Shown here: one piece after another, positions 1-61,890 of the stretch
Layout: each line of letters starts with the position of its first letter
Numbering within the stretch: the first letter of the stretch is position 1
Source: Nitrosotalea sp.
GTDB lineage: Archaea; Thermoproteota; Nitrososphaeria; Nitrososphaerales; Nitrosopumilaceae
NCBI GenBank assembly: GCA_023251295.1
Contig: JAHEYZ010000001.1
Span: 1-61,890 of the forward strand
Length of the DNA stretch: 61,890 bases
Direction: 5' to 3'
Position numbers and translations under genes: made by a program
The notes under the pieces: generated by a model
What the model was told of the DNA's origin: nothing
The model's database searches: none
What the model saw: only the letters and a program-made list of their open reading frames with translations

Positions 1-150
1 CTGTCTGAGTCATCACTGTCTGAGTCATCACTGTCTGAGTCATCACTGTCTGACTCTGAATCCTTAGAGTCATCACTGTCTGAGTCATCACTGTCTGAGT
101 CATCACTGTCTGACTCTGAATCCTTAGAGTCATCACTGTCTGAGTCTTTA
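1..150 (-). repeat. In-frame 15-nt tandem repeat (CTGTCTGAGTCATCA, with a 30-nt variant unit) encoding an acidic Ser/Asp tail
   Basis: Direct reading: unit repeated 3x, then a variant, 2x, then a variant. The minus-strand translation gives ...DSKDSESDSDDSDSDDS... The repeat runs into the left window edge. Confidence 0.85.
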
Positions 151-983
151 GAATCTTTATTCTCTGATTGTTTGTTTTCTTTTTTGTCTGTGCTTTTATT
201 TTCGCTCTGTGCTTTCTCTTCGTTTAGCTCTTCGCTTTTACTTGATACAAAAATATTATCTATGTTAGGGATCGTTTTTGGATCTGATTTTAAATTCTTA
301 AGGAATGGTAAGATCTCTTTATTATAAAATTTATATGTTAACCATAACGCACCTTTAGAATCTAACCCCTCGGATCTTTTAATGTACTCAATTACTTTTT
401 TAAATTCTGTCTGGTTAACTATATTATTTCTGTTAAACCTAGAAGCTAAAAGCGCGCTGACTGGATCTTTAATTGTATTGCTAACTGAATAATTCTTTAA
501 ACCAAAATATGATCTTAGTTTTATGAATCTATTCTTTGATCCTTCTTGAAGCTTACCCGTTAATGATTCGATTCTTTGATCCTCGATTATATTGTATGCG
601 CTCTTTAACATTTTTAAAGCTGTGGATCTTTTCTTTGGATCTAACTTTGCTTTATTAATTGAAGCTGTGATCCATTCCTGAGAATACTTTGAGAAAGTTT
701 GCATTAATGTATTAAAAATAATATGGGATAGCTCATGTTCTAAAGCTGTTTTGCGATCGATCTCTTCGTGGTTTTCATCGGTTGTAATTACATATTGTTT
801 AGCGTACTTATCAAAGTAAACATAATGAGCTTTTGATTTAGAATTAAAAACTAACTTAATTGTTTTACCTGTAATCTTTTCGAAGATCTCTTTTATTTCT
901 ATTAAGACTTTTCGATCCTCTTCGTTAGCTTCGCTATATTCAAAATAAGGTTTTAATTCTAATGGCTGTTTTATGTCTGTCAT
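1..983 (-). CDS. HExxH-motif protein (putative Zn-metallopeptidase-like partner of the upstream AAA+ ATPase); 3' end cut by the window edge; acidic SD-repeat tail
   Basis: ATG at 983-981 and no stop down to position 1 in my hand translation; it is absent from the ORF track because no stop lies in the window. Contains ...KTALEHELSHIIFNT... (HELSH at codons 83-87). Lies directly downstream of an AAA_5-type ATPase, as in MoxR/CobS partner pairs. Confidence 0.7.
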   Translation of the reverse strand, partial: MTDIKQPLELKPYFEYSEANEEDRKVLIEIKEIFEKITGKTIKLVFNSKSKAHYVYFDKYAKQYVITTDENHEEIDRKTALEHELSHIIFNTLMQTFSKYSQEWITASINKAKLDPKKRSTALKMLKSAYNIIEDQRIESLTGKLQEGSKNRFIKLRSYFGLKNYSVSNTIKDPVSALLASRFNRNNIVNQTEFKKVIEYIKRSEGLDSKGALWLTYKFYNKEILPFLKNLKSDPKTIPNIDNIFVSSKSEELNEEKAQSENKSTDKKENKQSENKDSKDSDSDDSKDSESDSDDSDSDDSDSDDSKDSESDSDDSDSDDSDSDDSD

Positions 984-1133: not shown

Positions 1134-2315
1134 TTAATCATCTTTTAGATTAACGCCTAAATCTGACTCGATTAATTCAGTGATTAATCTAATCTGATCC
1201 TCGTCATCTGTGATCGCGTACTTGCCAAAAAGATCCTCTTTACATGCTGTCTTTAAAGCCTCTTCGTTTGTTGCTTTCTCGTTTGTCTTCATGTCTTCAA
1301 AAGTTTCACAGAATCTTAAGATCTCCCTAGGATCTAAACCCTCGTTAAGCTTGCCTTCTTTCTCTGCGCTTTTGATCTTCGCTCTTAGTTGTAAGATGTT
1401 TTCGATCGTTGTGTCTGCGATTGTTTTGTATTGATCGTTTATGATTTGCTTTAGTTGGCTGTCTGTAAAATCTGGCCACTGGAAGATCTTAAATCTGCTT
1501 TTTAGTTCGCGGTTTAATTCGAACGTACCCGCATAACTTGAAGGGTTAGCGGTTGCATAAACTAAGATCTCACAGTCAGAATCTAATTTAAATTTCATTC
1601 CTAAAGTTTCATTATAAACCCCTTCATGAAAGTTTAGTTTTTCGTTTAGATTCTTTTGTGCTTCTGGTGTTAACGTATTCAATTCATCGAGAATTAAAAA
1701 CGCTCTTTTTGTAGGTGACTGTTTAGATATTTCGATCGCTTGAAATATTGCGCCTAAGATATACACACTAGAATTATTTTCTAACTGCATAGATCCGCAC
1801 AGCTCGTCTTTATCTATTGTCGAATGGCAACTAAAAAAGATACAAGGATCTTTATGTAGTGTCGCGTAATATTTAGCGAAGGCTGTTTTTCCAATACCCG
1901 ATCCGCCCTCAACTAAAACAGCTTTGGATCTTGTTTGTCTGATCCATCTTTTAATTAATTTATCCTCTCCAAATCTTATATTATATTTCTCATTCGATGC
2001 GTTTAAAAATTCTCTATAGTCTGGCATTCGAATCTTTAAACCACTTATAGAAATATTTAATTCGTTTGGCTGTTGGATCTGTGGCTGTGTTGGCTGTGTT
2101 ATATCTGGCTGTGTGACATGATCGATCGTTAGCTCTGGCTGTGTTGGCTGTGACTGTGATGTTATAGCGCTCTGTGTGTTTTGATTAACAGCAATCTTTA
2201 AAGCTTCTAACTCTGCTTTTTTAGCTTCGCGTTTAGCTTTGCGCTTTGCGTTGATGTCTGACTTATTCTTTAAGTAGTGTTCGCGGTTGATTTGTTTTTT
2301 TGATTTCATTAACAT
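1134..2315 (-). CDS. AAA+ ATPase, AAA_5 / MoxR / CobS-like, with Lys-rich and TQP-repeat N-terminal region
   Basis: Walker A is VLVEGGSGIGKTAF and Walker B is FLILDELN. The downstream segment ILVYATANPSSYAGTFELNRELKSRF is typical of the MoxR/CobS/GvpN clade. The ORF-track start at 2363 is a TTG. ATGs at 2315 and 2309 lie 21-27 nt below a TTTATATA box (2331-2338), so I prefer them. Confidence 0.85.
   Translation of the reverse strand: MLMKSKKQINREHYLKNKSDINAKRKAKREAKKAELEALKIAVNQNTQSAITSQSQPTQPELTIDHVTQPDITQPTQPQIQQPNELNISISGLKIRMPDYREFLNASNEKYNIRFGEDKLIKRWIRQTRSKAVLVEGGSGIGKTAFAKYYATLHKDPCIFFSCHSTIDKDELCGSMQLENNSSVYILGAIFQAIEISKQSPTKRAFLILDELNTLTPEAQKNLNEKLNFHEGVYNETLGMKFKLDSDCEILVYATANPSSYAGTFELNRELKSRFKIFQWPDFTDSQLKQIINDQYKTIADTTIENILQLRAKIKSAEKEGKLNEGLDPREILRFCETFEDMKTNEKATNEEALKTACKEDLFGKYAITDDEDQIRLITELIESDLGVNLKDD
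2066..2155 (-). repeat. Degenerate TGGCTGTGT repeats inside the AAA+ gene, encoding (T/S)QP repeats
   Basis: GGCTGTGTTGGCTGTG recurs at about 2082, 2106 and 2136. The protein reads SQSQPTQPELT...VTQPDITQPTQPQIQQP. Confidence 0.6.
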
Positions 2316-2896: not shown

Positions 2897-2906
2897 GATC
2901 TTATTT

Positions 2907-3052
2907 TTTTTATCTTACTGTTAGATTAGTTTGTCTGATTGTTTTATCTTACTGTTAGATTAGTTTGTCTGATTGTTTTATCTTACTGTTAGATTAGTTT
3001 GTCTGATTGTTTTATCTTACTGTTAGATTAGTTTGTCTGATTGTTTTATCTT
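2907..3052. repeat. Perfect 34-bp tandem repeat x4.3 (GTTTTATCTTACTGTTAGATTAGTTTGTCTGATT), non-coding; iteron-like
   Basis: Units at 2907-2940, 2941-2974, 2975-3008 and 3009-3042, plus a 10-nt partial unit. There are no intervening spacers and no ORF. Confidence 0.9.
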
Positions 3053-3607: not shown

Positions 3608-4975
3608 CTATACCTGTTCCTTCGTGTAATCCTGTACACCTGATTGATCATTCTCTTCATATCCGTATGGCATATCAATAGGGTTTTCTACCTCTTGATA
3701 TGTTGCACCCTCTAATGATTCCTCTGTATTGTCTTCTATCTCTTGGTCAACATTAGATTCCTTTTTGATTCGTTCCTCTGCTTGTAGATCTGCAAACTGC
3801 TCTTCCATTTCTTGCTTGAATAGTTTTTCTTCCCTTGTTAATTCCTCGTCTGATTTTTCTGGTTCAGTTCCTAATTCTCCAAGCGCTACACTCTGAGATT
3901 GTACAGAACCTTTTTTCATATATGTACGTCTTCTCTTTCTTGTTAGATCTTTATCGAGTATCTGATTGACTGTCTTCCAATTGATTTGATTCTGTCTATC
4001 CATCTCACCTAAACTATTCCATATTGAAAGCCTCTTAGTATCAATTACTTTTAGTCCATGCCTTGCAAAGCTATACAATCTAATCATAGACCTTGCTCTG
4101 TCCTTACCATAGGCATCAACGAAATGTTGTACAAGTTCATCACTATTCATGATCCTCTTTGCATTATAATCCTCATCACATATCATACATGAATCTCTTA
4201 GATACACAAAGAAGTGAACTATATTTCCTTCGAGCGCTAGACCCAATCTGAATGGTCGATCAGTATGGTACTTCATCTTCTTTCCTGTCCATCGATCTAC
4301 TTCAAATCTAAATTCATTATTGAACATCATCTGTTGATAGTACCATGCGAAGTCTTTGAACTTCCATCTTGCATGTGGGAAGACATCACTGAATGTATGA
4401 ACCTCTTCCATAGTTATACTGGTCAAGAAAACAAATGGTACATTACGGAAAAATCTTGATAGAGCTTTTGAGTAATGGATGTTCATCATTACTACTACTT
4501 GACCCTTAACATCATGCCTAATGTATGTAAGAGCTTGTGCAATTCTATTAATATCATCCTTGGGCAACTTATCGAGTGCGAACGAAGCATCATCCATAAT
4601 AAGTATGTGCGAAATTCCCTTGGTCAGATTATGTATGATGCGATCAAGCTTCTGAATATCATCCCTGTAAAACCAATGCACTTGGAAGTTTCTCCTTTGA
4701 TGCAACATGTGAACCAGCATTCTTGACCATGTGGATTTTCCTGAACCTGACATTCCAATATTTAATATGCCAAGAAATCCAGTCTTATCAAGATAGTTTA
4801 GCATTCGATCTATCGTTGGTGTTGGACTCATCGATACTGGAATGGGCCATTTCTGCATTGTATTTGGGTCAGTGAAGAGTGTAGTCTTTAATCCCTGATA
4901 CTTTTTAATCAGTAATTGATTCGAAGGTTGTAGTGCAAGATTGCCTTCTACCTTTGGGAACTCTTCGATTGCCAT
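3608..4975 (-). CDS. P-loop NTPase (Walker A/B ATPase) with acidic C-terminal tail; replication or packaging role not resolvable
   Basis: Walker A is NIGMSGSGKSTWS and Walker B is HILIMDDASF. The C-terminus is E/D-rich. Starts 6 nt after the stop of 4981..5298, so it is probably co-transcribed. Confidence 0.8.
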   Translation of the reverse strand: MAIEEFPKVEGNLALQPSNQLLIKKYQGLKTTLFTDPNTMQKWPIPVSMSPTPTIDRMLNYLDKTGFLGILNIGMSGSGKSTWSRMLVHMLHQRRNFQVHWFYRDDIQKLDRIIHNLTKGISHILIMDDASFALDKLPKDDINRIAQALTYIRHDVKGQVVVMMNIHYSKALSRFFRNVPFVFLTSITMEEVHTFSDVFPHARWKFKDFAWYYQQMMFNNEFRFEVDRWTGKKMKYHTDRPFRLGLALEGNIVHFFVYLRDSCMICDEDYNAKRIMNSDELVQHFVDAYGKDRARSMIRLYSFARHGLKVIDTKRLSIWNSLGEMDRQNQINWKTVNQILDKDLTRKRRRTYMKKGSVQSQSVALGELGTEPEKSDEELTREEKLFKQEMEEQFADLQAEERIKKESNVDQEIEDNTEESLEGATYQEVENPIDMPYGYEENDQSGVQDYTKEQV

Positions 4976-6076: not shown

Positions 6077-6106
6077 ATTTACTTTTAATAAGCTTAGCTT
6101 AAATGC

Positions 6107-7169: not shown

Positions 7170-7240
7170 CTTTTTTCTCAATTTTTTAAAATAAATTTTT
7201 TGGTTGGCTTCAATGAATAAGATTATAATACTATCTTTGT

Positions 7241-7533: not shown

Positions 7534-7884
7534 TCAGACTGTCAGATTTGAGATCGAATTATCTTCCTTTAGCATGTACTCTTTTAACTTTAATCTATTT
7601 GAGATGTGTTTATTTCTTGGAATTAGATACCAGCGCTTTCCATAGCCACCACCATCTACAAAAACTATATCGAGATTTCTCCGATTTGCTCTAAGTACCA
7701 TTCCTGAATCCTTTGTAATTACTATGTATCCATTATCTTTTGCTAGATTTAATAGATCTACATCTTCAATTCCATATTGTCTTAAACCTTTCTGGTAGTA
7801 TAACTCTCTAACATTGATCACATTTTCAGGGAGAAATTCATCGAGAACAGTAATGTTTTCATCTAAAAGGAACTTAAAATTCAA
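7534..7884 (-). CDS. PIN-like nuclease domain protein (DUF5615 / Mut7-C-like); TTG start
   Basis: (M)NFKFLLDENI...EDVDLLNLAKDNGYIVITKDSG matches the FLxDEN...D..L...A...G..lvTkD signature of DUF5615. A TTTATAA box lies 30 nt upstream of the TTG. No DUF433-like partner ORF was seen. Confidence 0.6.
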   Translation of the reverse strand: MNFKFLLDENITVLDEFLPENVINVRELYYQKGLRQYGIEDVDLLNLAKDNGYIVITKDSGMVLRANRRNLDIVFVDGGGYGKRWYLIPRNKHISNRLKLKEYMLKEDNSISNLTV

Positions 7885-10254: not shown

Positions 10255-10266
10255 ATTTAAAATAAA

Positions 10267-28091: not shown

Positions 28092-28107
28092 CTCTTATAA
28101 AAGAAAA
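28092..28107 (-). promoter_or_regulatory. Class-A promoter motif
   Basis: Exact CTCTTATAAAAGAAAA. The ATG at 28070 lies about 30 nt from the TATA centre, implying a leaderless or near-leaderless mRNA. Confidence 0.7.
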
Positions 28108-51156: not shown

Positions 51157-51265
51157 TTATAGCTCTTCTCCCATTTGGTTACTCAATAGTGGTCTAATAC
51201 TAGATTATTTAAATCTGGTTGTCAGTTGTTTTTATATTAGACCAACAATTCTTGACCTTTTGCTC

Positions 51266-51700: not shown

Positions 51701-51721
51701 TGTTTTCTCTTACTTGATGGA

Positions 51722-51737
51722 CTTTAATAAAAGAAAA
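51722..51737 (-). promoter_or_regulatory. Class-A-like promoter motif (CTTTAATAAAAGAAAA)
   Basis: Read directly from the sequence. Confidence 0.55.
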
Positions 51738-52409
51738 CTATCCACCGAATAGTTTACTTAAAAAGAATATCATTCCTGCTGGTTCTGGATGGGTTAGTTG
51801 CCCAAAGTAATTACCTGCTTCTCTGATCCATTTTGGTGCATTTTGCATAAATGCCAGAGCTACAATTGCTATTACAACCATAATCATAACTGGTATCCCA
51901 GCTTTCAATGATGGATGTAAGGAGTCTATCGCCTTTTTCCCTTCCTGACATACTTCATTTAATCTCTTTATTGAAACTGGATTGTATGCCCGATAATATG
52001 GCAGGAATTTTTCTGTATCAATATCTATAGCCTTATGTTTTGTCATTATTGAGATGAATCTGAACATCTCCCAAATATCCTTAAAATCAATATCCTCAAT
52101 TTCTGGATAAATTGCTTGGAGTTCCTTCTTGATTTGCATATAGTTTCCCTTCCTATAGCATTTTTTTACGTTTTTAACCACGTTTTTTGGAATTATTGAT
52201 CCATGAGAATTATAAATTGAAAGTGGCTGTTTGTTGTATCTATATTCACTCTCAGAATCATATTCAAATATGCCAAATTCATTTATAAAAAATTCCCTCA
52301 TTCTTTCAATCCTTCTGAATTTTAAATAATTCTTTCTTGTAATTATTATTGCAAGTGGGCCACCATACCATAGAAGACCCAATTCATGGAAATCAACTTT
52401 GCTTGCCAT
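51738..52409 (-). CDS. Protein with soluble N-domain and C-terminal TM anchor(s)
   Basis: Contains GIPVMIMVVIAIVALAFM and AGMIFFLSKLFGG. Confidence 0.7.
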   Translation of the reverse strand: MASKVDFHELGLLWYGGPLAIIITRKNYLKFRRIERMREFFINEFGIFEYDSESEYRYNKQPLSIYNSHGSIIPKNVVKNVKKCYRKGNYMQIKKELQAIYPEIEDIDFKDIWEMFRFISIMTKHKAIDIDTEKFLPYYRAYNPVSIKRLNEVCQEGKKAIDSLHPSLKAGIPVMIMVVIAIVALAFMQNAPKWIREAGNYFGQLTHPEPAGMIFFLSKLFGG

Positions 52410-52410
52410 T

Positions 52411-53031
52411 TTATGATCCTATAAATTTTAATGGGTTAAATTTTGTCATGAAAACTATTGCACCGATTGCAATTCCCATCAATATCATCATTGGAAGTAT
52501 TGTTGGAACTTTGTTTGACATTCCTGTATTGACTTTCTTTGCATTCATCTTTGCTGTGTTCTGTAATTTTAAATCATTCTTGTCAAATGTTCTATAATCA
52601 ATCAGGAATTTTTGATCATGCTGTGAAATATCTTCTGGTTTTTTTGCATATAATTCTTTCATTGCATTGATTGGATCTGTGTAATGTTTTTCAGCAGATG
52701 CTTCAATTGCTGTATCAATCCTTGAAAGTTCTTTTACTATAAGATGTGCTTTCTTTTCTCTATACAATGTCTGAATTTTTTCAATACCTGTCAATGAAAT
52801 TGGTTTTGAATTAAATAAATTATAAAATAATATTGATTGCCCGCCAGCATTGTATGAATATTCTCCATCCAGTTCAAACACACCATCTTTCGTCTGGAAG
52901 AATTTTCCTTGATGTCTAACTGCCTTTCTGATTTCAATTTGTCTATCGCCTGATTTCAGAAAAATTATCGGCCCTTTCATCAACTTTAATTCTAATATTG
53001 GTATATGACCTGTCAGACTGAAATTAGGCAT
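52411..53031 (-). CDS. Protein with soluble N-domain and C-terminal TM anchor
   Basis: Contains VPTILPMMILMGIAIGAIVFM. Same architecture as 51738..52409. Confidence 0.7.
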   Translation of the reverse strand: MPNFSLTGHIPILELKLMKGPIIFLKSGDRQIEIRKAVRHQGKFFQTKDGVFELDGEYSYNAGGQSILFYNLFNSKPISLTGIEKIQTLYREKKAHLIVKELSRIDTAIEASAEKHYTDPINAMKELYAKKPEDISQHDQKFLIDYRTFDKNDLKLQNTAKMNAKKVNTGMSNKVPTILPMMILMGIAIGAIVFMTKFNPLKFIGS

Positions 53032-53850: not shown

Positions 53851-56800
53851 TCAAAAGTATCTCTTACCAATGAATGTTCCAATCGCAGTTATCAACACAA
53901 TCAATGCCCAGAACCCGCCAGTAATCAATGGATCTCCCGTCAATGGATCTGGGAAGTAACCTAGTACACCCATTGCACCGATCGCAACTGCCATGAATAT
54001 TATTCCTGTGCTTGCGCTTCTTCCTGTCCAAATCGCGGCCAAAAATAGGATGAATATGAATGGAACTGGAACACCTAGGAAATCTCCAAGGTTGTTTGTG
54101 AATGCTACAACTGCTGTTGTTCCGTTTGTAAGACCAAATGATGTAAATGATAGAATCTGGTTGTCATTATCCAATGGATCAAAACATGTTACATAGGCAT
54201 TGTTAAATGATTTTACAGGGCCGAATACAGTAGTCCAGCTACCTACATTTGAAATATTGAATGTCTGAATTGGTGCAAACAATCCTTCTGTAAGTTCACA
54301 ATCAAGACTCCAAGGTGCAGGTTGTCTTATGAATTGTACATTAATTCCTGTATATGTTGCATTTCTCATGTGAGTAAAGAATAGGTTAGAGCTTGGATCA
54401 AACAATACAGTTGCATATATTGTTCCAACTGTTGTTGAATTTGTACCAGCACCGTTTTGGAATCTTGTTGTTCCATTGATCAATACCAATGTTCCTGCTG
54501 GTTCATCTATTGTATAGAATGTTGACCATGATTGTGTAACAGTTCTTGGTGTTGATACTATTTGTGGAATATTTTCTATGAATGTTCCATTCTGTGTTAT
54601 TCCTACTTGATATAGATTACATGTTGGGAAGCATTCATTTACAGTTCCATTAAAGTCAATTTTTAATACATTTCCTGCCACACTTGAATTTGTAATTGTG
54701 ATGTTGCCAATTTGTGGGATTAACGTAGTGCTTGTTATCTCTGGCAATGTATATTGACCGTCTTGGTCTATTGTCTGTCCTTTTACCCTGTACGTATTCG
54801 TAATTTGGTTATGTGGGCTGAAATCTGAGTAAGAAGTCGTATTACCTTGGACTGCAATTGTCATCCAAGTTACATTATCTGTGTTTAATCTCTGGATTGT
54901 ATAGAATGTGATTTCACTGTTTGGTGTTCCAACTGGATTCGACCATGTTAAATCTACATTATATGGGAATACTGGATCAAATATGCCAAACAAGTTTTCA
55001 GGTTCTTGTATTGTATCAAATGTGCTTGCTGTCAAATTGGCTGAATATGCACCTGTTCCGTAAGTGTTCTTTGATGCGATGCTATAGATGTAATATGTAT
55101 CCTGTAACAATCCTGTATATTGTTTGTTTGTTGGTGTAGCTGGATGGTTTGGTGTAACTGTAACAAATGTTCCACCGATATTTTGGGCTTGTTTTATTGA
55201 ATATCCAGTAATTGGTACTCCACCTGTATAAACTGGTGAATCCCAATCAACGTCTATCACACTTACTCCGTTTGTTGTAAATGAAAGATTGATTGGTGGA
55301 TCTGGAACTCCCTGTGTCTTGTCATTGTCTTCATTTGAGAATACTCCTGTTCCTACAAGATTTGTTGCACGAACCTTATAATTATAAATTGTATTTTGAG
55401 TCAATCCAATATCGCTGTAGCTTAGTGTAACTCCTGAAACATTTGCTACAAATACAAATCCACCACCTACTGGTGTTTCCCTGTAAATTGAATACGATGT
55501 GATTCCACCGCCAACATAAGATGGACTCAACCATGATAGATTGATTTGTACATTGTTGAATGTTACAGCATTAAGTGTTAGTGGTGCTGATGGAACTGTG
55601 TATGTTGTTGCACTTGCTATGTTTGAATATGCACTTGATCCTGCACCGTTGTCTGCTCTAACCCTGTACTCGTATGTATTTCCAGATAATAATCCTGTAT
55701 CATTATAGTAAATTGTTGGTGCTGGGATTGTTGCAATTGTAACAAATCCTGTGAATCCTACATGTTTTCTCTGCAATACAAAACTTGTTGGTGGATCTCC
55801 ACCTATACCTGCTACCCACTGTGTATTGATTGCTGAACCTGAAATGGTTGTTGCTGTTAAGCTTGTTGGTGGATTCGGTGTCATTACTGGTGTAGTTACT
55901 ATTGAAAATTCATTTGAGAATGGGCTATACCCAATTGCATTTACAGCCCTAACCTTGTATGTGTAATTTGCACCTGAAATTACTGTTTCATCCTCGTAAA
56001 TTGCTGTTGCATTTGTGGTATTTGCTAAGAATGAATATGCACCAACTCCTTGCTTCCTTTGGAATTGATAATGGGTAATATCTACACCTGTAGATGGACT
56101 GCCTGTTCCATTGTCAACTGGTACATCCCAATTCAAGAACACATGTTCCAAGTGTGGAATTATAACTCCCATTGCACCTGTTAGATTTGCTGGTGCTGTA
56201 GGAATATCATTCGTTGTCACTAGCTGGAATGCCTCAGAACTATTTCCACCACCACTTACTGCAAGTACCGAGTAATTGTATAATGTATTTACTGATGGGA
56301 AGTAATCAGTGAATTGGCTTACAATTGGATTTCCAATTTCATTTCCATCTCGTTTTACTGCATAACTTGTCGCTGATCCTACATCATCCCAATCAATTGC
56401 TACGGTTGCATTAACTGCTGTCGCTGTGAAATTTGCTGGTGTATTTAGTGCAAATGAACCATTGTCATAATATCCTGCATCCCAAAAGTCTGCAACAGAA
56501 GATTCAATATTTCCACGCAAGTTAGTTACAGTATTTCCACTGTCAAAATCCCAAATACCAATAGTTGAAATTGTAACGTTATCAATATCTAAAAATGCAC
56601 TTGAACTTCCTGCTGAATCATCTATTGTTAACATTACAGTAACAAAATCTTCTGTTGAACCTGCCCAATTAATTGACGAATTTGTCAATGTTCTAATTTC
56701 GTCAAGAATTTGGATTGTTATTGATGTTGATCCCAATACTGCACCACCCTGAGATACCAATCCAACATTCAAAGGAAAATCTGGATTATTCTCTGTATTA

Positions 56801-59800
56801 TATGCACCATCTAAAACTTGTAATGTATAACTTGCAGGTGCGCCATCACCAGTACCAGCTAGCCCACTCCATCCAACAGAAATGTCTGAACCAAATATTT
56901 CTGTTTTGTTAAATGATTTGAAAAATCTTCCTTGACCAAACGCAAAATCTGTTCCTACACTTCCACCTGAATCAGCCCTGATTTGATATGTTTTACCAAA
57001 AAATGTTGGTGTTGCACCTGTGGTTATAAAGTCATATAGTGGATCAAATGGGTTTGAACTAATCCCAGAATAATTATCAACTTCCCTGAAATACCAACGC
57101 GAAGATGTACTATTTATTATTGCACTTGAACCATCATCTTGGACTGGTTCTTTTGTAAATGCAATATTTGAACCGTTTACTGCAACACCTATGTCATTCT
57201 CACCTCTAACTCTGTAGAAGTATGTTAAACCATCCTCTAATCCTGAATCTGTAAAGTTTGTTTGTGGTGCTGTCACATTTGCTAAAAATGTAAAGTTTTC
57301 AATTCTAATATTCATTGCAAGATCTCCACCAGCAGATGAAAATGAATATGGAAACGTATCACTAAACGCTGTTTTTGCTAATCCATTAACTTCATCTGCT
57401 GTTGACTTGCGAAACTTTGTATCTGTTGTAACTGTTCCTGTCATATTTGCACCTACATGATATGTTGTTCCACCGTCTAATTTTACAGGTGGATCGAAGA
57501 AAAATGATTGCACATTAAATGATGATACAAATAATGGAGTTATTGTACAAGGACTTATTGTTGCATTTGAACTTGCAATTAAAGTTGAACCACTACTTGA
57601 CCAAATACTTCCACGAAGCAACCCAGAACCAGTACAACCAGCATCTTGCGTAATAGACATGTCTATTCTTGTTACGTTTACGTCAACAGTTGGCGTAATT
57701 TCCTGTGCTACTGCAAATTGTGTACCGCTCGTTCCAGTTAAAGTTGTTGGAGAACGATCCTGATGATAAATAAGGAAATCATCTGAACTTAGTCTAGCAA
57801 GATCTCCACTGGTTCTTTCTATAAGATAAAATGTTGGCGAACCCATTGGTTCAGTCCAATTCATATAAATTGAATTTGTTATTGGAAATACCTGCAAGTC
57901 GTCAATTGTATCTGGTGGACTGATATTTTCTGCACTTGCAGTTGAGTTATCTCCACAATCAATTGCATTACATCCAGCAACTTTGTACGTATAACTTCCT
58001 GATGTTACGCTTGTATCATTATAGTAATTGATTGCTGGATTATTTGTTGCTAATAATGTATATCCTGAACCAGCATCCCTGTAAATATTATAACTTGTTA
58101 GATTTAATCCTGTACTTGGATTGCCTTCTCCATTATTATATGCCAGTGCATTCCATTGTAAATTAACTTTCAATGGGCTTTGTACTATCACAGTTTGTAA
58201 GTTTTGGACTTGATCTGGAACATCATTTGTCAATACATTATTTGAATATCCAGCAGTTCCATTTTCAACTCCATTATCACCATAAACTCTATACTGATAA
58301 TCAGTTCCACGTTCCTGAGTTGTATCTATAAATAATGTAATTGGTTCTGCACCATCAAGATATAATTTGAAATTATCAATTGAATAGTCAAAATCATCAC
58401 TATCTGATCCAGAACCAAGATTGCTTACAACCAGATATTTCAAATTATTGTATCTTTCTGCACCGCCATTAAATGAAAGGCTTAATGGTAACTGGCATCC
58501 AGCAGTTCTTTGTTCACATGTAAATTCAGTAACACTTACTGTAGTTCCAGATTTTGTCATGTTAAAGTATCGTTTTACATTATTATCTGATACTGCCGAT
58601 TCAATTGTTGTATCAATTGCATCAAATGTAGAACAATTTGTTCCATCTGCCAGTGCTAATGTTCCTTGAATTGCTATTGTTTGACCACCAACATATCTAA
58701 AACAAACATGATCTGCTGTTTCACTTGGATGCTTTATTGCACTAACTAATGAGATCAGTTCATTCTGTCCATTAAATACAGAGTTTAGTGATGTTTGATC
58801 CCAGAGTAATGAAAAGTCACCATCTCCATTAACATCTGTTGCCTGTACTCCTAATGCAGACAAATCAAAGCTAAGGTAATTAGTTCCAGAATTACTCCAT
58901 TTGGTATAAAGGTCATCAGATGTTGAGTTTACTCCACAAATGTTATCAGCTCCACCTGTTCCACCTGTACAATTTGTTGTATTTGGAATCCAACTTATGT
59001 TTGCAGTTGCATTATCAGGATACTCTGAAAATCCTTCTGTGAATGCCAATCCAAAGTCTGTATCTCCTACTACTGTGAAATTTGCATTTAGTGTGGCTGA
59101 TGGTACTGTGAAATATCCATAATCATAATCACCCCCAAAAGTAGGGCCTACCTCGTTTGTAAGAGATGCACCTGCCATACTTTGGTAAATATATGGTTCT
59201 CCGTTGTTTGTGAAGTTAACTGATAGAAGGTTAAGTACTGGAAAGCTTGTTAGGATTGACAAGTCATGCAATTGCATTACTATTCTAACATAACTACTAT
59301 AACTTCCAACTGAGAATGTTTTTGTTTGTGTTCCACTATTAGCTACAAAACCCATTGTTGCCGAAATTGGAGAACATCCGCTAAGTGGAGCTGTTGAAAA
59401 TGCTGGTCTTGTACCTAGACCACAATTGTATAATGTTACAGTACCAGAAATTCCTGTTGCAAGCGGGCCATCAAATGTTGCTTTTACTTCCAAGTCTGTG
59501 TTTGCTACATCTGTTGCGTTGAAATCTTTCCAGATATAACAGTCAGCCCATTGGATGCCTACAGGATGACTAACACCGATACCGCCAGAAATTGATGGTG
59601 TACATAGTGTTCCAGCACCGCCACCTACTCCTGAATCAAGTGGGAACTCATTCCAACTCCATGTTTCATTTACAGATGCAAAATTGCCTCTTTCAATCCA
59701 ATACTTGTCAACTGCTGGTTCTGATACAACTGAATCCCAATCAACTATTACCGTATCAATATCTGCTGTTGCTTCTACATTATCTGGTGCTGGGATTGTA

Positions 59801-61890
59801 GTTACAGATGTGAAAGGGCCAGTTGGATTTGTTTTACCCGCAATTCTATATACATAATTGGTACTTTCTGGTGCTGATGTGTCTGTATATGATGTTGCTG
59901 ATGGTGATAATGTTGCAATTGTACTCCATGATACAACTGGCACATCTCCTGATCCATCATGATATTCAAATATTATATCATCAATTATTTGGTCTGTTCC
60001 ATGAATACTATTTGTAATTGGAAAAACAAATCCATCTGAAATTGTTGCACTTGTACCACCTATGTATAATCCCCATGTTGTTACTTTTGCCAGTTCAGTT
60101 GGATTAGAACTGATATATGTCTGGAACAATGATGTTGCATTTGCTGTAATTGTGAATGGTGTATTTTTTGCATTGCTTGTTATAACAAATGAACCTGCAT
60201 TAAGGAATGGATCATCTACTTTTCGTATTATTGTGTAACCTACTGTTGCAGTTGGGTTACTATTACAAAGCTGTTTGCCTCTTGTATAATAATTTGTTAT
60301 TAGTGGTGGTGTACAGTCTGCATCATCTCTTGTTTCTACCTGTACTCCTGTTTTTGTGCCATTTTCAAACGTATAACTAACACCATAGCCTGTTGAACCA
60401 CCATAAGAATCACCACCAGCATCAAGTATCTTGCTTTGGAATGTTACTTTGTCAATTTCAGATATTGGTATTTCTTCTTTTGCTATGTTTGAATCAAGTT
60501 TGAATCTGTCTGAACTGCCTGCTCTCCATGTTAATGCCTTATAATGAAACGATGAACCATTTATTGCATTATCATCAGTAATTTTTCCTATGATACAGTT
60601 CTGTGCTTGTGTTACTTGACCAGTTCGCAACCCAAAGTTTGGACAGTTAAGCGTTCCCTGACCTACTGCTGTTTCATGATCATAAATAACCTTAAAGTTA
60701 TCACCAAATGTTTCAATTGAACCTTGATAATCAGCAGATAGATCTTCGTCTGCAAATCTGCTTGTGCTTTCAAAATTCTCGCTGATATAATCTGCATTTC
60801 TTCTTTGTACAATTACCGAGGTTAATGGATCTGGGTCATGTGTTACTGCTGTATCCCATGATAGCTGGACTGATGTAGTGTTTAATCTTACAGCTTCAAG
60901 GTTTTGTATCTTTTCAATTAGTCCAAAGTAATTTGCTGTTGAGTTGTCTGTGTATATCGCTGTTCCTGTAAAGTATCCCCTTACCTTATACTGGTAAACA
61001 CTTGTCAATCCTGTATTTACGAGATTACTATCTACGTATGTTGATCCGTCATCCCAATTATTTACAATCATTGTTCCGTTTCTAAATATCTGATAATAAT
61101 CCGCACCTACATCAGTCCAAGTTAACGTAGCTTTTGCATCATATTGTTGGTCAACTACTAAGTTTAGGTCTGGTTCTGTGAAGTTTGCCATAGCTCCTGT
61201 TGCTTCTTCAACATCTCCGTTTAGTGCAACTACCCTGTAAAAGTAAGTATTACCTGATGTGGTGTTTTCATCAATGAAAAATGTTGTAAGATTTCCAGTA
61301 TTTGCAATATATGGATTATAATATAATTTAGTTTGATTTATTACATTGATGATTATCTGTGTATCTCTTCCACCCGAAGCATCCCAATTTGGACTATTCC
61401 ATCTATAATTTTGACAGCATGTAGGTGTTCCTGAATCTCTTTCTGCTACCTCAATAGTTCCGCTAGTTCTATCTTGCCATAACACACCATAACCAATTGT
61501 TGATTTTTGAGATGCTGATACATTGATTAATCCTGTATCTCTGAAAGTAAATGTAAATCCGCTTGGATTTTGAAATCCATTATATACTTCTGGTGTAGCT
61601 GTATTTGTTGCATTGGCTAATGTAGTTAAGCTACCACCAGCATGTACTACATTTGAAAATATTGAACCGTAAAGTTGCCCACCTGTTGGATTTGTAGTAC
61701 CAGTATCTAAAAATCCTACTGTGAAATCACTTACAATCTGTCCTGTTATATCTGGTGTTCCACTATTTTGTGAAAATCCTTCTTCTGCTACTGCATCTGG
61801 TGATGCATTTAGTGCTTCTCTTGTATTTGCACCTGTGTATGTGTTCATAAATTCATAGGTATCTGCTGATTCAGTAGATGTTCTGTAAAT
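53851..61890 (-). CDS. Giant (>2665 aa) FN3-repeat surface or adhesin-like protein with C-terminal triple TM anchor; frame still open at the right window edge
   Basis: At least 11 FN3-like signatures are present, for example NYTYKVRAVNAIGYS, TYEYRVRADNGAGSS, IYNYKVRATNLVGTG, TYFYRVRGENDIG and DYQYRVYGDNGVENG. The C-terminus reads FIFILFLAAIWTG...IIFMAVAIGAMGVLGYF...FWALIVLITAIGTFIG. No in-frame stop lies between the ATG at 61848 and position 61890. Confidence 0.9.
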   Translation of the reverse strand: MYRTSTESADTYEFMNTYTGANTREALNASPDAVAEEGFSQNSGTPDITGQIVSDFTVGFLDTGTTNPTGGQLYGSIFSNVVHAGGSLTTLANATNTATPEVYNGFQNPSGFTFTFRDTGLINVSASQKSTIGYGVLWQDRTSGTIEVAERDSGTPTCCQNYRWNSPNWDASGGRDTQIIINVINQTKLYYNPYIANTGNLTTFFIDENTTSGNTYFYRVVALNGDVEEATGAMANFTEPDLNLVVDQQYDAKATLTWTDVGADYYQIFRNGTMIVNNWDDGSTYVDSNLVNTGLTSVYQYKVRGYFTGTAIYTDNSTANYFGLIEKIQNLEAVRLNTTSVQLSWDTAVTHDPDPLTSVIVQRRNADYISENFESTSRFADEDLSADYQGSIETFGDNFKVIYDHETAVGQGTLNCPNFGLRTGQVTQAQNCIIGKITDDNAINGSSFHYKALTWRAGSSDRFKLDSNIAKEEIPISEIDKVTFQSKILDAGGDSYGGSTGYGVSYTFENGTKTGVQVETRDDADCTPPLITNYYTRGKQLCNSNPTATVGYTIIRKVDDPFLNAGSFVITSNAKNTPFTITANATSLFQTYISSNPTELAKVTTWGLYIGGTSATISDGFVFPITNSIHGTDQIIDDIIFEYHDGSGDVPVVSWSTIATLSPSATSYTDTSAPESTNYVYRIAGKTNPTGPFTSVTTIPAPDNVEATADIDTVIVDWDSVVSEPAVDKYWIERGNFASVNETWSWNEFPLDSGVGGGAGTLCTPSISGGIGVSHPVGIQWADCYIWKDFNATDVANTDLEVKATFDGPLATGISGTVTLYNCGLGTRPAFSTAPLSGCSPISATMGFVANSGTQTKTFSVGSYSSYVRIVMQLHDLSILTSFPVLNLLSVNFTNNGEPYIYQSMAGASLTNEVGPTFGGDYDYGYFTVPSATLNANFTVVGDTDFGLAFTEGFSEYPDNATANISWIPNTTNCTGGTGGADNICGVNSTSDDLYTKWSNSGTNYLSFDLSALGVQATDVNGDGDFSLLWDQTSLNSVFNGQNELISLVSAIKHPSETADHVCFRYVGGQTIAIQGTLALADGTNCSTFDAIDTTIESAVSDNNVKRYFNMTKSGTTVSVTEFTCEQRTAGCQLPLSLSFNGGAERYNNLKYLVVSNLGSGSDSDDFDYSIDNFKLYLDGAEPITLFIDTTQERGTDYQYRVYGDNGVENGTAGYSNNVLTNDVPDQVQNLQTVIVQSPLKVNLQWNALAYNNGEGNPSTGLNLTSYNIYRDAGSGYTLLATNNPAINYYNDTSVTSGSYTYKVAGCNAIDCGDNSTASAENISPPDTIDDLQVFPITNSIYMNWTEPMGSPTFYLIERTSGDLARLSSDDFLIYHQDRSPTTLTGTSGTQFAVAQEITPTVDVNVTRIDMSITQDAGCTGSGLLRGSIWSSSGSTLIASSNATISPCTITPLFVSSFNVQSFFFDPPVKLDGGTTYHVGANMTGTVTTDTKFRKSTADEVNGLAKTAFSDTFPYSFSSAGGDLAMNIRIENFTFLANVTAPQTNFTDSGLEDGLTYFYRVRGENDIGVAVNGSNIAFTKEPVQDDGSSAIINSTSSRWYFREVDNYSGISSNPFDPLYDFITTGATPTFFGKTYQIRADSGGSVGTDFAFGQGRFFKSFNKTEIFGSDISVGWSGLAGTGDGAPASYTLQVLDGAYNTENNPDFPLNVGLVSQGGAVLGSTSITIQILDEIRTLTNSSINWAGSTEDFVTVMLTIDDSAGSSSAFLDIDNVTISTIGIWDFDSGNTVTNLRGNIESSVADFWDAGYYDNGSFALNTPANFTATAVNATVAIDWDDVGSATSYAVKRDGNEIGNPIVSQFTDYFPSVNTLYNYSVLAVSGGGNSSEAFQLVTTNDIPTAPANLTGAMGVIIPHLEHVFLNWDVPVDNGTGSPSTGVDITHYQFQRKQGVGAYSFLANTTNATAIYEDETVISGANYTYKVRAVNAIGYSPFSNEFSIVTTPVMTPNPPTSLTATTISGSAINTQWVAGIGGDPPTSFVLQRKHVGFTGFVTIATIPAPTIYYNDTGLLSGNTYEYRVRADNGAGSSAYSNIASATTYTVPSAPLTLNAVTFNNVQINLSWLSPSYVGGGITSYSIYRETPVGGGFVFVANVSGVTLSYSDIGLTQNTIYNYKVRATNLVGTGVFSNEDNDKTQGVPDPPINLSFTTNGVSVIDVDWDSPVYTGGVPITGYSIKQAQNIGGTFVTVTPNHPATPTNKQYTGLLQDTYYIYSIASKNTYGTGAYSANLTASTFDTIQEPENLFGIFDPVFPYNVDLTWSNPVGTPNSEITFYTIQRLNTDNVTWMTIAVQGNTTSYSDFSPHNQITNTYRVKGQTIDQDGQYTLPEITSTTLIPQIGNITITNSSVAGNVLKIDFNGTVNECFPTCNLYQVGITQNGTFIENIPQIVSTPRTVTQSWSTFYTIDEPAGTLVLINGTTRFQNGAGTNSTTVGTIYATVLFDPSSNLFFTHMRNATYTGINVQFIRQPAPWSLDCELTEGLFAPIQTFNISNVGSWTTVFGPVKSFNNAYVTCFDPLDNDNQILSFTSFGLTNGTTAVVAFTNNLGDFLGVPVPFIFILFLAAIWTGRSASTGIIFMAVAIGAMGVLGYFPDPLTGDPLITGGFWALIVLITAIGTFIGKRYF

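What the first reader, a model, noticed from the sequence alone, without database searches (positions are those of the whole stretch)
1..61890. Hallmark-poor, unidirectional archaeal virus/provirus-like genome segment
Seen in the sequence:
- About 125 tightly packed ORFs, almost all on one strand, with frequent ATGA/TAATG stop-start overlaps.
- TATA boxes 27-32 nt upstream of start codons with no Shine-Dalgarno sequence, as in archaeal leaderless mRNAs.
- Mobile-element genes: a tyrosine integrase, two DNA methyltransferases, two HNH nucleases and a PIN-like nuclease.
- Roughly 30 tiny zinc-finger ORFs.
- Giant FN3 and low-complexity proteins.
- Small two-helix hydrophobic proteins.

Not seen by eye: terminase, portal, HK97 or double-jelly-roll capsid, or a DNA polymerase.

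Inference: this is a membrane-containing (spindle-shaped or pleomorphic-type) virus, or a related integrative element, of an AT-rich archaeon. Marine Nitrososphaerota is a guess based on composition and the FN3-rich proteins, and nothing more. At more than 62 kb it would be much larger than the described spindle-shaped viruses of that group.
Basis: partly seen in the sequence, partly recalled or inferred. Interest (0 to 1): 0.75.

Follow-up and report, generated by a model that had tools for sequence, protein, structure and literature searches.

The report
Large spindle-virus-like element of marine thaumarchaea
The window is about two thirds of a roughly 95-kb, almost annotation-free mobile genome that uses archaeal-type promoters. 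Its one solid hallmark gene ties it to the spindle-shaped viruses of ammonia-oxidising archaea, so it is most likely an undescribed lineage of such viruses with a genome three times larger, one that current virus-finding pipelines miss.

Summary
There are about 119 ORFs, 106 on one strand. There are 22-31 zinc-ribbon ORFs, a giant FN3 protein and two-helix hydrophobic proteins. No terminase, portal, HK97, jelly-roll or polymerase signature was found in 77 kb examined.

New evidence:
- A 15-nt TATA promoter occurs 10 times against 0.5 expected. In 7 cases a start codon lies 26-31 nt downstream, which is the archaeal leaderless arrangement.
- AAA+ ATPase g008 has sequence homologues, among 50,697 GenBank phage records, only in the 11 'Nitrosopumilaceae spindle-shaped virus' genomes (Nipumfusiviridae). 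Its best structural match among viral proteins is a protein of the cultured Nitrosopumilus spindle-shaped virus (E 1e-12).
- g108 is a very divergent tyrosine recombinase. It defines a family of 37 metagenomic clusters on contigs up to 95 kb, none of them in IMG/VR.
- Four paralogous Cys-loop alpha-hairpin proteins exist. Two carry large inserts in the loop, one of them lectin-like.
- The window is 99.99% identical to part of a 95,107-bp contig, and both its ends are assembly breaks.

Not confirmed: the second HNH, the second methyltransferase (weak) and 'no Shine-Dalgarno' (SD-like motifs are enriched).

Verdict: an archaeal, probably Nitrosopumilaceae, virus-like element, outside Nipumfusiviridae and Thaspiviridae. 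A virion, integration and the host are still unproven.

The parts
3..983 (-). N-terminal 327 aa of a 719-aa CobT-like VWA protein with an HExxH motif. Its acidic DSDDS repeat (15-nt tandem repeat, 1-146) is where the window and other contigs break.
   Evidence: The full protein in L019 matches VWA (E 3e-7) and CobT_C (E 8e-6). The NCBI and ENA relatives' contigs start inside this gene.
1134..2315 (-). MoxR/CobS-like AAA_5 ATPase, paired with the VWA protein downstream.
   Evidence: Pfam AAA_5 E 2e-11. PHROG 249 'porphyrin biosynthesis' E 8e-17. Weak tblastn hits to cyanophage CobS.
2905..3052 (.). Intergenic array of 4.3 perfect 34-bp direct repeats (iteron-like), a candidate replication origin next to the ATPase genes. 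Copy number differs between assemblies.
   Evidence: The 95-kb ENA contig carries about two more copies. The function is inferred.
3608..4975 (-). AAA+ ATPase g008, the hallmark gene shared with Nipumfusiviridae and with Nitrosopumilus spindle-shaped virus. Walker A is GSGKST, Walker B is IMDD. There is a conserved C-terminal CxxC domain.
   Evidence: Pfam nSTAND3 E 2e-7. 253 representative clusters. tblastn hits only the 11 Nipumfusiviridae genomes. hhalign probability 100%. AF2 pLDDT 83. The top BFVD hit is an NSV protein, E 1e-12. PDB hits are AAA+ proteins: Bcs1, RFC, Orc1/Cdc6.
7534..7884 (-). PIN-like (DUF5615) protein.
   Evidence: E 8e-6.
12818..13564 (-). ATP-grasp protein (R2K clade).
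   Evidence: Pfam R2K_3 E 4e-10.
21895..22125 (-). Fourth and shortest (76 aa) Cys-loop alpha-hairpin paralogue. The codon aligned with the Met of g077 and g078 is ATA, preceded by GGGGGTGA.
22564..23160 (+). Only convincing plus-strand gene: a putative DNA methyltransferase with a DPPY motif. Weakly supported.
   Evidence: Sequence. UPF0020 E 0.027, below the cut-off. A 68%-identical homologue occurs in relative L036.
28891..29646 (-). Hairpin paralogue g077, with an insert of about 190 aa between the two hydrophobic helices. It sits behind the leaderless promoter.
29689..30828 (-). Hairpin paralogue g078, with an insert of about 320 aa that contains a concanavalin-A-like (Laminin_G_3) domain. 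It sits behind the leaderless promoter.
   Evidence: Pfam E 1.5e-7.. A homologue with the same build occurs in relative L042.
31361..32761 (-). 466-aa protein with a weak resemblance to glycosyltransferases.
   Evidence: PHROG 2170 E 9e-4. No Pfam or PDB support.
36973..37539 (-). HNH endonuclease.
   Evidence: Pfam HNH E 2e-5.
41677..42012 (-). Hairpin protein g103 (111 aa): two hydrophobic helices, a short Cys-Cys loop and a basic C-terminal tail. Candidate major capsid protein.
   Evidence: The resemblance to the published Nipumfusiviridae MCP is one of build only (hmmsearch E about 2; hhalign probability 24% over 22 columns).
42012..42566 (-). MT-A70 family DNA methyltransferase.
   Evidence: Pfam E 6e-23. 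40-41% identical to genes of two Nipumfusiviridae genomes.
43480..44871 (-). Divergent tyrosine recombinase g108 (463 aa). R247, K281, R363, W386 and Y395 are invariant in 28 homologues.
   Evidence: AF2 pLDDT 82. The top Foldseek hits are lambda integrase (probability 0.89-0.97, E about 0.1), and the SSV1 integrase catalytic domain scores TM 0.55. No Pfam or PDB sequence hit.
45449..49633 (-). 1394-aa disordered, basic protein rich in G, P, K, A and T with FGG motifs. It is conserved in 24 related loci.
50201..53031 (-). Conserved core module: g113 (double zinc ribbon), g114 (the most conserved protein, 55-96% identity), g115 (144 aa from a TTG start, signal plus three hydrophobic helices) and the tail-anchored paralogues g116 and g117.
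   Evidence: The module is syntenic in 14-17 related loci. g115 against the Nipumfusiviridae core protein N010: hhalign E 1.7e-4, probability 50%. The N010 HMM's best hit outside its own family is g115, E 0.02. A leaderless promoter precedes the TTG start.
53851..61890 (-). Giant surface protein (2679 aa in the window, N-terminus cut off) with FN3/Ig-like domains and three C-terminal hydrophobic helices. Candidate host-attachment fibre.
   Evidence: fn3 E 5e-26. Hydrophobic segments. 29-34% identity to the giant ORFs of all six Nipumfusiviridae genomes compared. The homologue in the relative is 3304 aa.
28092..28106 (-). One of ten copies of the promoter TTTCTTTTATAAGAG. The others are at 7154, 12190, 22178, 22241 (+ strand), 29671, 30853, 35855, 41655 and 51722.
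   Evidence: 10 copies against 0.49 expected, and start codons 26-31 nt after the TATA centre in 7 cases.

Best explanation
The window is 62 kb of the roughly 95-kb, probably circular, double-stranded DNA genome of an undescribed lineage of archaeal viruses. The host is most likely marine or sediment Nitrosopumilaceae. The lineage is a distant and much larger relative of the spindle-shaped thaumarchaeal viruses (Thaspiviridae, Nipumfusiviridae).

Proposed working, shown steps:
- Nearly all genes are transcribed in one direction.
- A repeated TATA promoter is placed for leaderless mRNAs.

Proposed working, inferred steps:
- The host RNA polymerase reads these archaeal TATA promoters. One strongly conserved promoter drives the small hydrophobic hairpin genes and the g115 module, which would be the abundantly made virion components.
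- The Cys-loop alpha-hairpin proteins (g103 and the 76-aa paralogue) would build a hydrophobic capsid lattice, as in spindle-shaped viruses.
- Paralogues g077 and g078 would display large inserts, one of them lectin-like, at the exposed turn of the hairpin.
- The giant membrane-anchored FN3 protein would serve in host attachment.
- The AAA+ ATPase g008, with the neighbouring 34-bp iterons, would start or support replication by the host replisome. No polymerase was found.
- The divergent tyrosine recombinase g108 would integrate the genome into the host chromosome or resolve genome dimers.
- The methyltransferases would protect the DNA from restriction.
- The many zinc-ribbon and winged-helix proteins would regulate transcription.
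For: - Archaeal expression signals. A related promoter motif stands before the homologous genes in relatives L042 and L030.
- The only robust hallmark, ATPase g008, has sequence homologues in the GenBank phage set only in the 11 Nipumfusiviridae genomes. Its closest viral structure is an NSV protein.
- Further links to Nipumfusiviridae: the FN3 part of the giant protein and MT-A70, g115 against core protein N010, and the same build of giant ORFs with C-terminal hydrophobic helices.
- Four hairpin paralogues have the two-helix build described for spindle-virus capsid proteins (PMC8491892, PMC10866085).
- No Caudoviricetes or other capsid or packaging hallmark, and no conjugation or plasmid-partition family, in 77 kb.
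- No tRNA, rRNA or other Rfam family. No host housekeeping genes in the window, in its left flank or in the flanks of 11 relatives.
- Relatives form a syntenic family on contigs of 59-95 kb.
- Two near-full-length contigs are broken at different genes, the CobT-like gene and the giant gene. This fits a circular or permuted genome.
- A relative's contig is binned in a Nitrosopumilaceae MAG.
Against: - No capsid protein is identified with statistical support. The HMM of published MCPs gives E about 2 against the window ORFs. The published MCPs are themselves only predictions.
- The family is absent from IMG/VR.
- No CRISPR spacer, att site or integrated copy was found.
- About 18 kb of the 95-kb contig could not be read and might hold other hallmarks.
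- The ATPase fold is generic AAA+. Its role, replication or packaging, is not resolved.
- The host assignment rests on one binned 4.3-kb contig, on composition and on relatedness to viruses whose own host is mostly predicted. Some relatives come from deep sediments rich in other archaea.
- Circularity is inferred, not shown.
Confidence: 0.6

Rival explanations
1. It is a non-viral mobile element of Nitrososphaerota: a large plasmid or integrative element. It shares an AAA+ replication ATPase, methyltransferases and surface adhesins with viruses but forms no virion. The hydrophobic hairpin proteins and the giant FN3 protein would then be cell-envelope proteins.
For: - No capsid or packaging gene is identified with statistical support.
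- The family is absent from IMG/VR.
- A recombinase and an iteron-like array suit a plasmid.
Against: - No conjugation, partition or plasmid Rep family was found.
- The closest relatives of the one hallmark are viruses, one of them cultured and imaged (PMC8491892).
- The gene build (giant adhesins, small hydrophobic two-helix proteins, many tiny zinc-finger ORFs) mirrors Nipumfusiviridae genomes. The founding member of that family came from a virus-fraction metagenome.
Confidence: 0.25
2. It is a virus or mobile element of a different archaeal group, for example DPANN, Bathyarchaeia or Asgard archaea of marine sediments, and not of Nitrosopumilaceae.
For: - Several relatives come from deep subsurface sediment metagenomes that also yielded Asgard viruses.
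- The host evidence is indirect.
Against: - The ATPase links are specifically to viruses of Nitrosopumilus and Nitrosopumilaceae.
- GC of 0.30-0.39. That this resembles marine Nitrosopumilaceae rests on my own knowledge and was not tested.
- The only hit in 185,579 species genomes lies in a Nitrosopumilaceae MAG.
Confidence: 0.12
3. It is a bacteriophage or another bacterial element.
For: - SD-like motifs are enriched before many genes.
- The CobS-like ATPase has weak hits to cyanophage CobS.
Against: - TATA promoters sit 26-31 nt before start codons, which implies leaderless mRNAs.
- Almost no PHROG matches: 11 of 119 small proteins, none of them structural.
- No terminase, portal or capsid gene.
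- The winged-helix families are of archaeal type.
Confidence: 0.02
4. It is ordinary chromosomal DNA, or an old inactive provirus inside an archaeal chromosome.
For: A recombinase is present, and a relative's contig is binned with a MAG.
Against: - No housekeeping gene, tRNA or rRNA in 77 kb of this element or in the flanks of 11 relatives.
- Contigs of about 93-95 kb recur and are broken at different internal repeats instead of ending in host DNA.
- ORFs are intact and tightly packed.
Confidence: 0.03

Closest known systems
Nipumfusiviridae ('Nitrosopumilaceae spindle-shaped virus' NYM1 and relatives, BK067782-BK067792; Ni et al. 2024, PMC10866085; ICTV 2025, PMC12451623)
   Same: - Homologous core AAA+ ATPase (23-32% identity; hhalign probability 100%).
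- Giant FN3-bearing ORFs ending in hydrophobic helices.
- MT-A70 in some members.
- A probable homologue of the roughly 140-aa core membrane protein (g115 against N010).
- Small Cys-loop two-helix proteins of the same build as their predicted capsid protein.
- Many tiny ORFs and no polymerase.
- Predicted Nitrosopumilaceae host.
   Different: - Genome of about 95 kb against 27-38 kb.
- Only 3-5 shared proteins.
- Capsid-protein homology is not demonstrable.
- It carries a divergent tyrosine recombinase, a CobS/CobT-like pair, hairpin paralogues with large inserts, and a 20-kb core module (g106-g117) that the six Nipumfusiviridae genomes compared lack.
- Genes run almost entirely in one direction.
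Thaspiviridae (Nitrosopumilus spindle-shaped virus 1; PMC8491892)
   Same: - The ATPase model's best structural match among viral proteins is an NSV protein (E 1e-12, TM 0.58 over the whole 306-aa target).
- A small capsid-type protein with two hydrophobic helices.
- Methyltransferase and winged-helix genes, and a glycosyltransferase-like gene.
- A marine ammonia-oxidiser as host (inferred here).
   Different: [quoted passage not shown] None of these was seen here.
- No sequence-level hit to the ATPase was available, because NSV1 is not in the searchable collection.
- The sources read here do not mention an integrase in NSV1.
Large spindle-shaped viruses of Sulfolobales (Bicaudaviridae, e.g. 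Acidianus two-tailed virus). This comparison is from my own knowledge and was not tested.
   Same: - A large genome for a spindle-type virus (ATV is about 63 kb).
- A tyrosine integrase.
- A MoxR-type AAA ATPase paired with a VWA-domain protein. In ATV this pair was implicated in tail development.
   Different: - No sequence similarity was detected.
- Hyperthermophilic hosts.
- Their capsid proteins are of a different, larger helical type.
Fuselloviridae (SSV1)
   Same: - A two-helix hydrophobic capsid-protein paradigm with paralogues (VP1/VP3), a tyrosine integrase and an AAA+ ATPase core gene.
- The SSV1 integrase catalytic domain is among the fold matches of g108 (TM 0.55).
   Different: - 15-kb genomes.
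- The SSV-type integrase gene is split on integration, whereas all 37 g108 homologues are intact and full-length.
- No sequence similarity.

Membership tests
Nipumfusiviridae (ICTV 2025 criteria, PMC12451623) | Shares the family's ATPase. | tested here: met
   tblastn E 1e-10 to 1e-19 against the family's genomes. hhalign probability 100%, E 1e-51.
Nipumfusiviridae (ICTV 2025 criteria, PMC12451623) | Shares the family's major capsid protein. | tested here: not met
   An HMM of six published MCPs against all window ORFs gives a best E of about 2. hhalign of g103 against the MCP family gives probability 24% over 22 columns. Only the build is alike. The region upstream of the giant gene, where their MCP gene lies, could not be read.
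Nipumfusiviridae (ICTV 2025 criteria, PMC12451623) | [quoted passage not shown] | tested here: inconclusive
   Only three long proteins of about 119 give tblastn hits at E below 1e-3: the ATPase at 23-32%, the FN3 segment at 28-34% and MT-A70 at 40-41%. A 49-aa zinc-ribbon ORF gives one further weak hit. No genome-wide AAI was computed, and the shared fraction is far too small for family membership.
Thaspiviridae (PMC8491892) | Linear 27-29 kb genome with terminal inverted repeats. | tested here: not met
   The same sequence lies inside a 95,107-bp contig. No long inverted repeats were found in the window. The contig ends are assembly breaks.
Thaspiviridae (PMC8491892) | [quoted passage not shown] | tested here: not met
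   No polymerase or PCNA family in the window or in 15 kb to its left. About 18 kb of the genome was not seen.
Thaspiviridae (PMC8491892) | Small capsid protein with two hydrophobic alpha-helices. | tested here: met
   g103 and the 76-aa paralogue (21895-22125) have two hydrophobic segments around a short loop. This is an analogy of build.
Tyrosine recombinase superfamily (for g108) | Catalytic residues R...K...HxxR...H/W...Y. | tested here: met
   R247, K281, R363, W386 and Y395 are invariant, and H360 is present, in the alignment of 28 homologues at 42-88% identity.
Tyrosine recombinase superfamily (for g108) | Fold of the catalytic domain. | tested here: inconclusive
   The AF2 model has pLDDT 82. 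The eight best meaningful PDB matches are lambda integrase (probability 0.72-0.97, E 0.08-0.5, TM 0.35-0.47), and the SSV1 integrase catalytic domain scores TM 0.55. No match reaches E below 0.001.
Tyrosine recombinase superfamily (for g108) | Match to the Pfam Phage_integrase profile or to solved integrases by sequence. | tested here: not met
   No Pfam, NCBIfam or PHROG integrase hit. The profile against PDB sequences gives nothing relevant.
Caudoviricetes (tailed viruses) | Terminase large subunit, portal and HK97-fold capsid protein. | tested here: not met
   No such Pfam or PHROG family in any ORF of the window or its left flank.
Conjugative or integrative plasmids | VirB4/TraG-type ATPases, a relaxase or partition genes. 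| tested here: not met
   None appears in the Pfam scans. FtsK_SpoIIIE is only a minor cross-hit of the g008 family (6 of 51 members).

The most novel reading that the evidence does not exclude
This is the first genome-level view of a globally distributed family of temperate thaumarchaeal viruses of about 60-95 kb with a spindle-type or entirely new virion. They would be the largest genomes in the spindle-virus assemblage. The capsid lattice would be built from alpha-hairpin proteins, and paralogues of these would display lectin-like domains inserted at the hairpin turn. The genomes also carry a tyrosine recombinase clade so divergent that no profile library recognises it. The family would be invisible to present virus-detection pipelines.
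Probability: 0.4. Interest if true: 0.75.

Novelty: new variant of a known kind. Interest (0 to 1): 0.62.

Why it matters
[quoted passage not shown] If this is right, there is a widespread lineage of much larger elements. It comprises 37 protein clusters at 90% identity, from seawater to deep sediment, on contigs up to 95 kb. Standard pipelines do not call it viral, so thaumarchaeal mortality and gene flow are under-counted. It would also stretch the size range of the hydrophobic-hairpin capsid design. It offers a natural case of receptor-type domains grafted into the turn of a capsid protein. It adds a very divergent branch of tyrosine recombinases, a clean and highly repeated archaeal promoter, and an iteron array, all of which can be tested directly in Nitrosopumilus cultures.

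Tried and rejected
- A single fused query of eight proteins joined by X runs in the 5.8-billion-protein search returned nothing, not even the proteins themselves. The trick does not work and cost one search.
- IMG/VR scans with g008, with g108, with the g108 alignment and with a g008 sub-alignment found no relative. The broad g008 alignment was too divergent to scan with.
- g108 has no hit in GenBank phages. The g108 profile has no relevant hit against PDB sequences.
- The HMM of published Nipumfusiviridae capsid proteins against the window ORFs is not significant.
- My visual impression that the C-terminal three-helix anchor of the giant protein is homologous to g115 was not supported by hmmsearch.
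- The JGI metagenome scan with the N-terminal 900 aa of the giant protein, meant to reach the genes upstream of it, found nothing. The exact-sequence look-up of the truncated giant protein also found nothing. The roughly 18 kb upstream of the giant gene therefore stayed unread.
- NSV1 (MK570053) is not in the searchable phage collection.
- Searches of papers for the sample and assembly accessions found nothing.
- Pfam, NCBIfam and PDB gave no support for the second HNH, and only a sub-threshold hit for the second methyltransferase. They gave nothing for g082, g107, g113 or g114.
- No tRNA genes that could mark att sites were found in the window or in 27 related loci. No Rfam family was found.
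- The exact promoter 14-mer is absent from relatives. A related variant is present in two of them.

Full report
OBSERVATION

The window is AT-rich (GC 0.30-0.39). A greedy ATG-only ORF call gives 119 ORFs of at least 35 aa. Of these, 106 lie on the minus strand, and together they cover 85% of the sequence. Of 105 minus-strand junctions, 16 are 4-nt ATGA-type overlaps and 5 are 1-nt overlaps. There are no tRNA genes and no Rfam families.

Pfam, PHROGs and NCBIfam recognise very little:
- FN3 domains in a giant protein (53851-61890).
- A P-loop ATPase of the AAA+/STAND type (g008, 3608-4975).
- A MoxR/CobS-like AAA_5 ATPase (1134-2315).
- The start of a CobT-like VWA protein (3-983).
- An ATP-grasp protein, MT-A70, one HNH and a PIN-like DUF5615.
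- A concanavalin-A-like domain.
- A few winged-helix and zinc-ribbon families of archaeal flavour (HTH_45, TrmB/TFIIE-alpha-like, DUF2116).

None of these libraries reports a terminase, portal, HK97 or jelly-roll capsid, polymerase, conjugation or partition family.

Twenty-two ORFs of at most 130 aa (31 in all) carry zinc-ribbon-like Cys/His pairs. Twenty-six proteins have hydrophobic segments.

- The second HNH (34262-34630) gives only zinc-ribbon hits.
- The second methyltransferase (22564-23160, + strand) has a DPPY motif but only a sub-threshold hit.
- 'No Shine-Dalgarno' does not hold. SD-like 4-mers precede 41 of 112 genes, against 15 +/- 3.5 at random positions.

PROMOTERS

The TATA observation is right, and it is the strongest domain-level signal.

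The 15-mer TTTCTTTTATAAGAG occurs ten times against 0.49 expected by shuffling, nine times on the coding strand. In seven cases a start codon lies 26-31 nt after the centre of the TATA element. These seven are g075, g077, g078, g102, the TTG start of g115, a 32-aa zinc-ribbon ORF and a small TTG ORF.

This spacing puts the transcription start at or just before the start codon, which is the archaeal leaderless arrangement. SD-like motifs before the other genes fit operon-internal translation.

A related motif, TTTCTTTTAAATAAG, stands before the homologous genes in two relatives. The genes behind this promoter are mostly the small hydrophobic proteins, so it probably marks the abundantly expressed set (inference).

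WHERE THE WINDOW COMES FROM

Exact-protein look-ups place the window's genes on a 95,107-bp ENA metagenome contig, with window position x corresponding to record position x + 33211. BLASTN shows 99.99% identity. The differences are two extra copies of a 34-bp repeat in the ENA contig and the acidic repeat at the left end.

The left end of the window lies in a 15-nt tandem repeat. This repeat encodes the DSDDS stretch of the 719-aa CobT-like protein. The right end lies inside the giant gene. The ENA contig ends 6 nt beyond that point and a Logan contig ends 92 nt beyond it. Both window ends are therefore assembly breaks.

A relative at 78-81% nucleotide identity is a 93,009-bp NCBI contig. It starts inside the CobT-like gene and carries the giant gene in its middle. 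Two near-full-length contigs broken at different internal genes suggest a circular or permuted genome of about 95 kb. This is an inference, because I could not read the contig ends.

The 15 kb to the left of the window holds only small ORFs without family matches. About 18 kb, upstream of the giant gene, remained unread.

THE RECOMBINASE AND ITS FAMILY

g108 (43480-44871) has no Pfam, PHROG, NCBIfam or PDB sequence match. Its 37 homologous clusters are all full-length and come only from metagenomes or MAG-type assemblies, on contigs up to 95 kb.

In an alignment of 28 members at 42-88% identity, R247, K281, R363 (within HxxR), W386 and Y395 are invariant. This is the tyrosine-recombinase catalytic set.

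An AlphaFold model (pLDDT 82) finds lambda integrase as its best PDB matches (probability 0.89-0.97). The E-values are only about 0.1. The SSV1 integrase catalytic domain scores TM 0.55. I take g108 to be a very divergent tyrosine recombinase.

Integration itself is not shown. No tRNA genes or host genes flank the gene in 34 JGI loci and several others.

Around g108 there is a conserved, syntenic core of about 20 kb:
- the giant FN3 protein;
- g117 and g116, which are tail-anchored paralogues;
- g115, a small protein with three hydrophobic helices;
- g114, at 55-96% identity;
- g113, a double zinc ribbon;
- g111, a 1394-aa disordered basic protein;
- g110, g108, g107 and g106.

LINK TO KNOWN VIRUSES

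The family is not in IMG/VR.

The ATPase g008 has 253 representative relatives. By tblastn against 50,697 GenBank phage records it hits only the 11 'Nitrosopumilaceae spindle-shaped virus' genomes, BK067782-92 (E down to 3e-15). These are the genomes of Ni et al. 2024 (PMC10866085), ratified in 2025 as the family Nipumfusiviridae (PMC12451623). Profile-profile comparison gives probability 100%, E 1e-51.

The AlphaFold model of g008 (pLDDT 83) is a generic AAA+ fold in the PDB (Bcs1, RFC, RuvB, Orc1/Cdc6). Among predicted viral structures, its best match by five orders of magnitude is a protein of Nitrosopumilus spindle-shaped virus, the cultured thaumarchaeal virus. That match has E 9.8e-13 and TM 0.58 over the whole target, against 4.9e-8 for the next hit.

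Local comparison with six Nipumfusiviridae genomes shows further links:
- Shared FN3 segments of the giant proteins (29-34% identity) and MT-A70 (40-41%).
- A probable homologue of their roughly 140-aa core membrane protein. hhalign of g115 against N010 gives E 1.7e-4, probability 50%. The N010 HMM's best hit outside its own family is g115, E 0.02.
- The same build of giant ORFs ending in hydrophobic helices.

CAPSID CANDIDATES

Four paralogues share an N-terminal hydrophobic helix ending in ...EVSD(T/S)(L/I)xCP, a second Cys followed by ...AKDxAW..., and a second hydrophobic helix.
- g103 (111 aa).
- A 76-aa ORF at 21895-22125.
- g077, with an insert of about 190 aa between the helices.
- g078, with an insert of about 320 aa that contains a Laminin_G_3 (concanavalin-A-like) domain.

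The two-helix build is the one described for the predicted capsid proteins of NSV1 (81 aa; PMC8491892) and Nipumfusiviridae (88 aa; PMC10866085); the Cys-bounded loop is also seen in the Nipumfusiviridae sequences. Homology is not statistically supported (hmmsearch E about 2; hhalign probability 24% over 22 columns). It remains an analogy. That the inserts would sit at the exposed turn of the hairpin and act in host binding is an inference.

HOST

The direct evidence is thin.
- The single hit among 185,579 species genomes is a 4.3-kb contig binned in a Nitrosopumilaceae MAG.
- The ATPase links are to viruses of Nitrosopumilus and Nitrosopumilaceae.
- Composition fits.

Some relatives come from deep Indian Ocean sediment metagenomes, so other archaeal hosts are not excluded for parts of the family.

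COMPARISON AND MEMBERSHIP

[quoted passage not shown] This element shares the ATPase. It does not demonstrably share the MCP. Only three of about 119 larger proteins are shared, and the genome is three times larger.

It also lacks the linear genome with terminal repeats, the protein-primed polymerase and the PCNA of Thaspiviridae, at least in the 77 kb seen.

It works like these viruses, as far as can be judged, but belongs to neither family.

[quoted passage not shown] Whether this lineage is among them I could not tell. I found no description of it.

VERDICT

This is an archaeal, probably thaumarchaeal, virus-like element of about 95 kb. It is related through its ATPase to the spindle-shaped thaumarchaeal viruses, and it represents an undescribed lineage.

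Still unproven are the virion, its shape, integration, circularity and the host. A non-viral plasmid-like element is the main rival (about 0.25).

Noticed in passing
window 2905-3052: A perfect 34-bp direct repeat, 4.3 copies, lies in an intergenic gap about 0.55 kb downstream of the AAA+ ATPase gene. The otherwise 99.99% identical 95-kb contig has about two more copies. The array is iteron-like and a candidate replication origin, and its copy number varies within the population.
   Followed up: partly
window 3589, 5307, 6015, 6058, 53048 (minus strand): The 9-mer TTAGTACAC occurs five times exactly. All copies are on the coding strand and in intergenic regions. Two lie inside a 43-bp tandem repeat at 6002-6100. 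With one mismatch allowed the count is not above chance, so only the exact copies stand out. It may be an operator or a promoter-proximal element.
   Followed up: partly
window 21895-22125 (minus strand): The shortest hairpin paralogue has no ATG, GTG or TTG where its paralogues have Met. The aligned codon is ATA, 6 nt after a strong GGGGGTGA. The promoter copy lies 59 nt upstream instead of about 30. It is either a rare ATA start on a leadered mRNA or a recently inactivated gene.
   Followed up: partly
window 38015-41510 and 45449-49633: Several proteins (g094, g099, g101, g111) are long, basic and apparently disordered, and they share FGG/FG-type motifs. g111 (1394 aa) is conserved in 24 related loci. 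They may be internal or DNA-condensing proteins. No family match was found.
   Followed up: no
window 19806-20887: g051 and g052 are tandem paralogues (73-80% nucleotide identity over 236 and 74 nt). Each has two N-terminal hydrophobic helices and a conserved soluble C-terminal domain of unknown function.
   Followed up: no
window 51738-53031: g116 and g117 are tail-anchored paralogues (22-27% identity in cross hits). Both are kept side by side in 14-15 related loci.
   Followed up: partly
L011 13530-18526; L046 about 6500-11800: More distant relatives carry cassettes of glycosyltransferases, UDP-GlcNAc 2-epimerase and nucleotide-sugar epimerases or dehydratases next to the recombinase module. 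Dam methyltransferases occur in six relatives and MazG in one. This suggests that the element encodes its own glycan synthesis.
   Followed up: partly
window 1-146 and 61800-61890: Independent assemblies (ENA, Logan, NCBI) all break either in the acidic tandem repeat of the CobT-like gene or within about 100 nt of the same point in the giant gene. These two repeats fragment this genome in short-read assemblies. That may help explain why the lineage has gone unnoticed.
   Followed up: yes
window 1134-2315 and 3-983 (continued in L019 11333-13492): A MoxR/CobS-like AAA_5 ATPase is followed by a 719-aa VWA protein with an HExxH motif. From memory, a MoxR-VWA pair in Acidianus two-tailed virus was implicated in tail development. 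In marine phages the same pair is annotated CobS/CobT. Which role applies here is open.
   Followed up: no
window 53851-54100 against 51266-51700: By eye, the last 80 aa of the giant protein (LGDF..., three hydrophobic helices) resemble the three-helix part of g115. hmmsearch with the g115 family profile did not detect this.
   Followed up: yes
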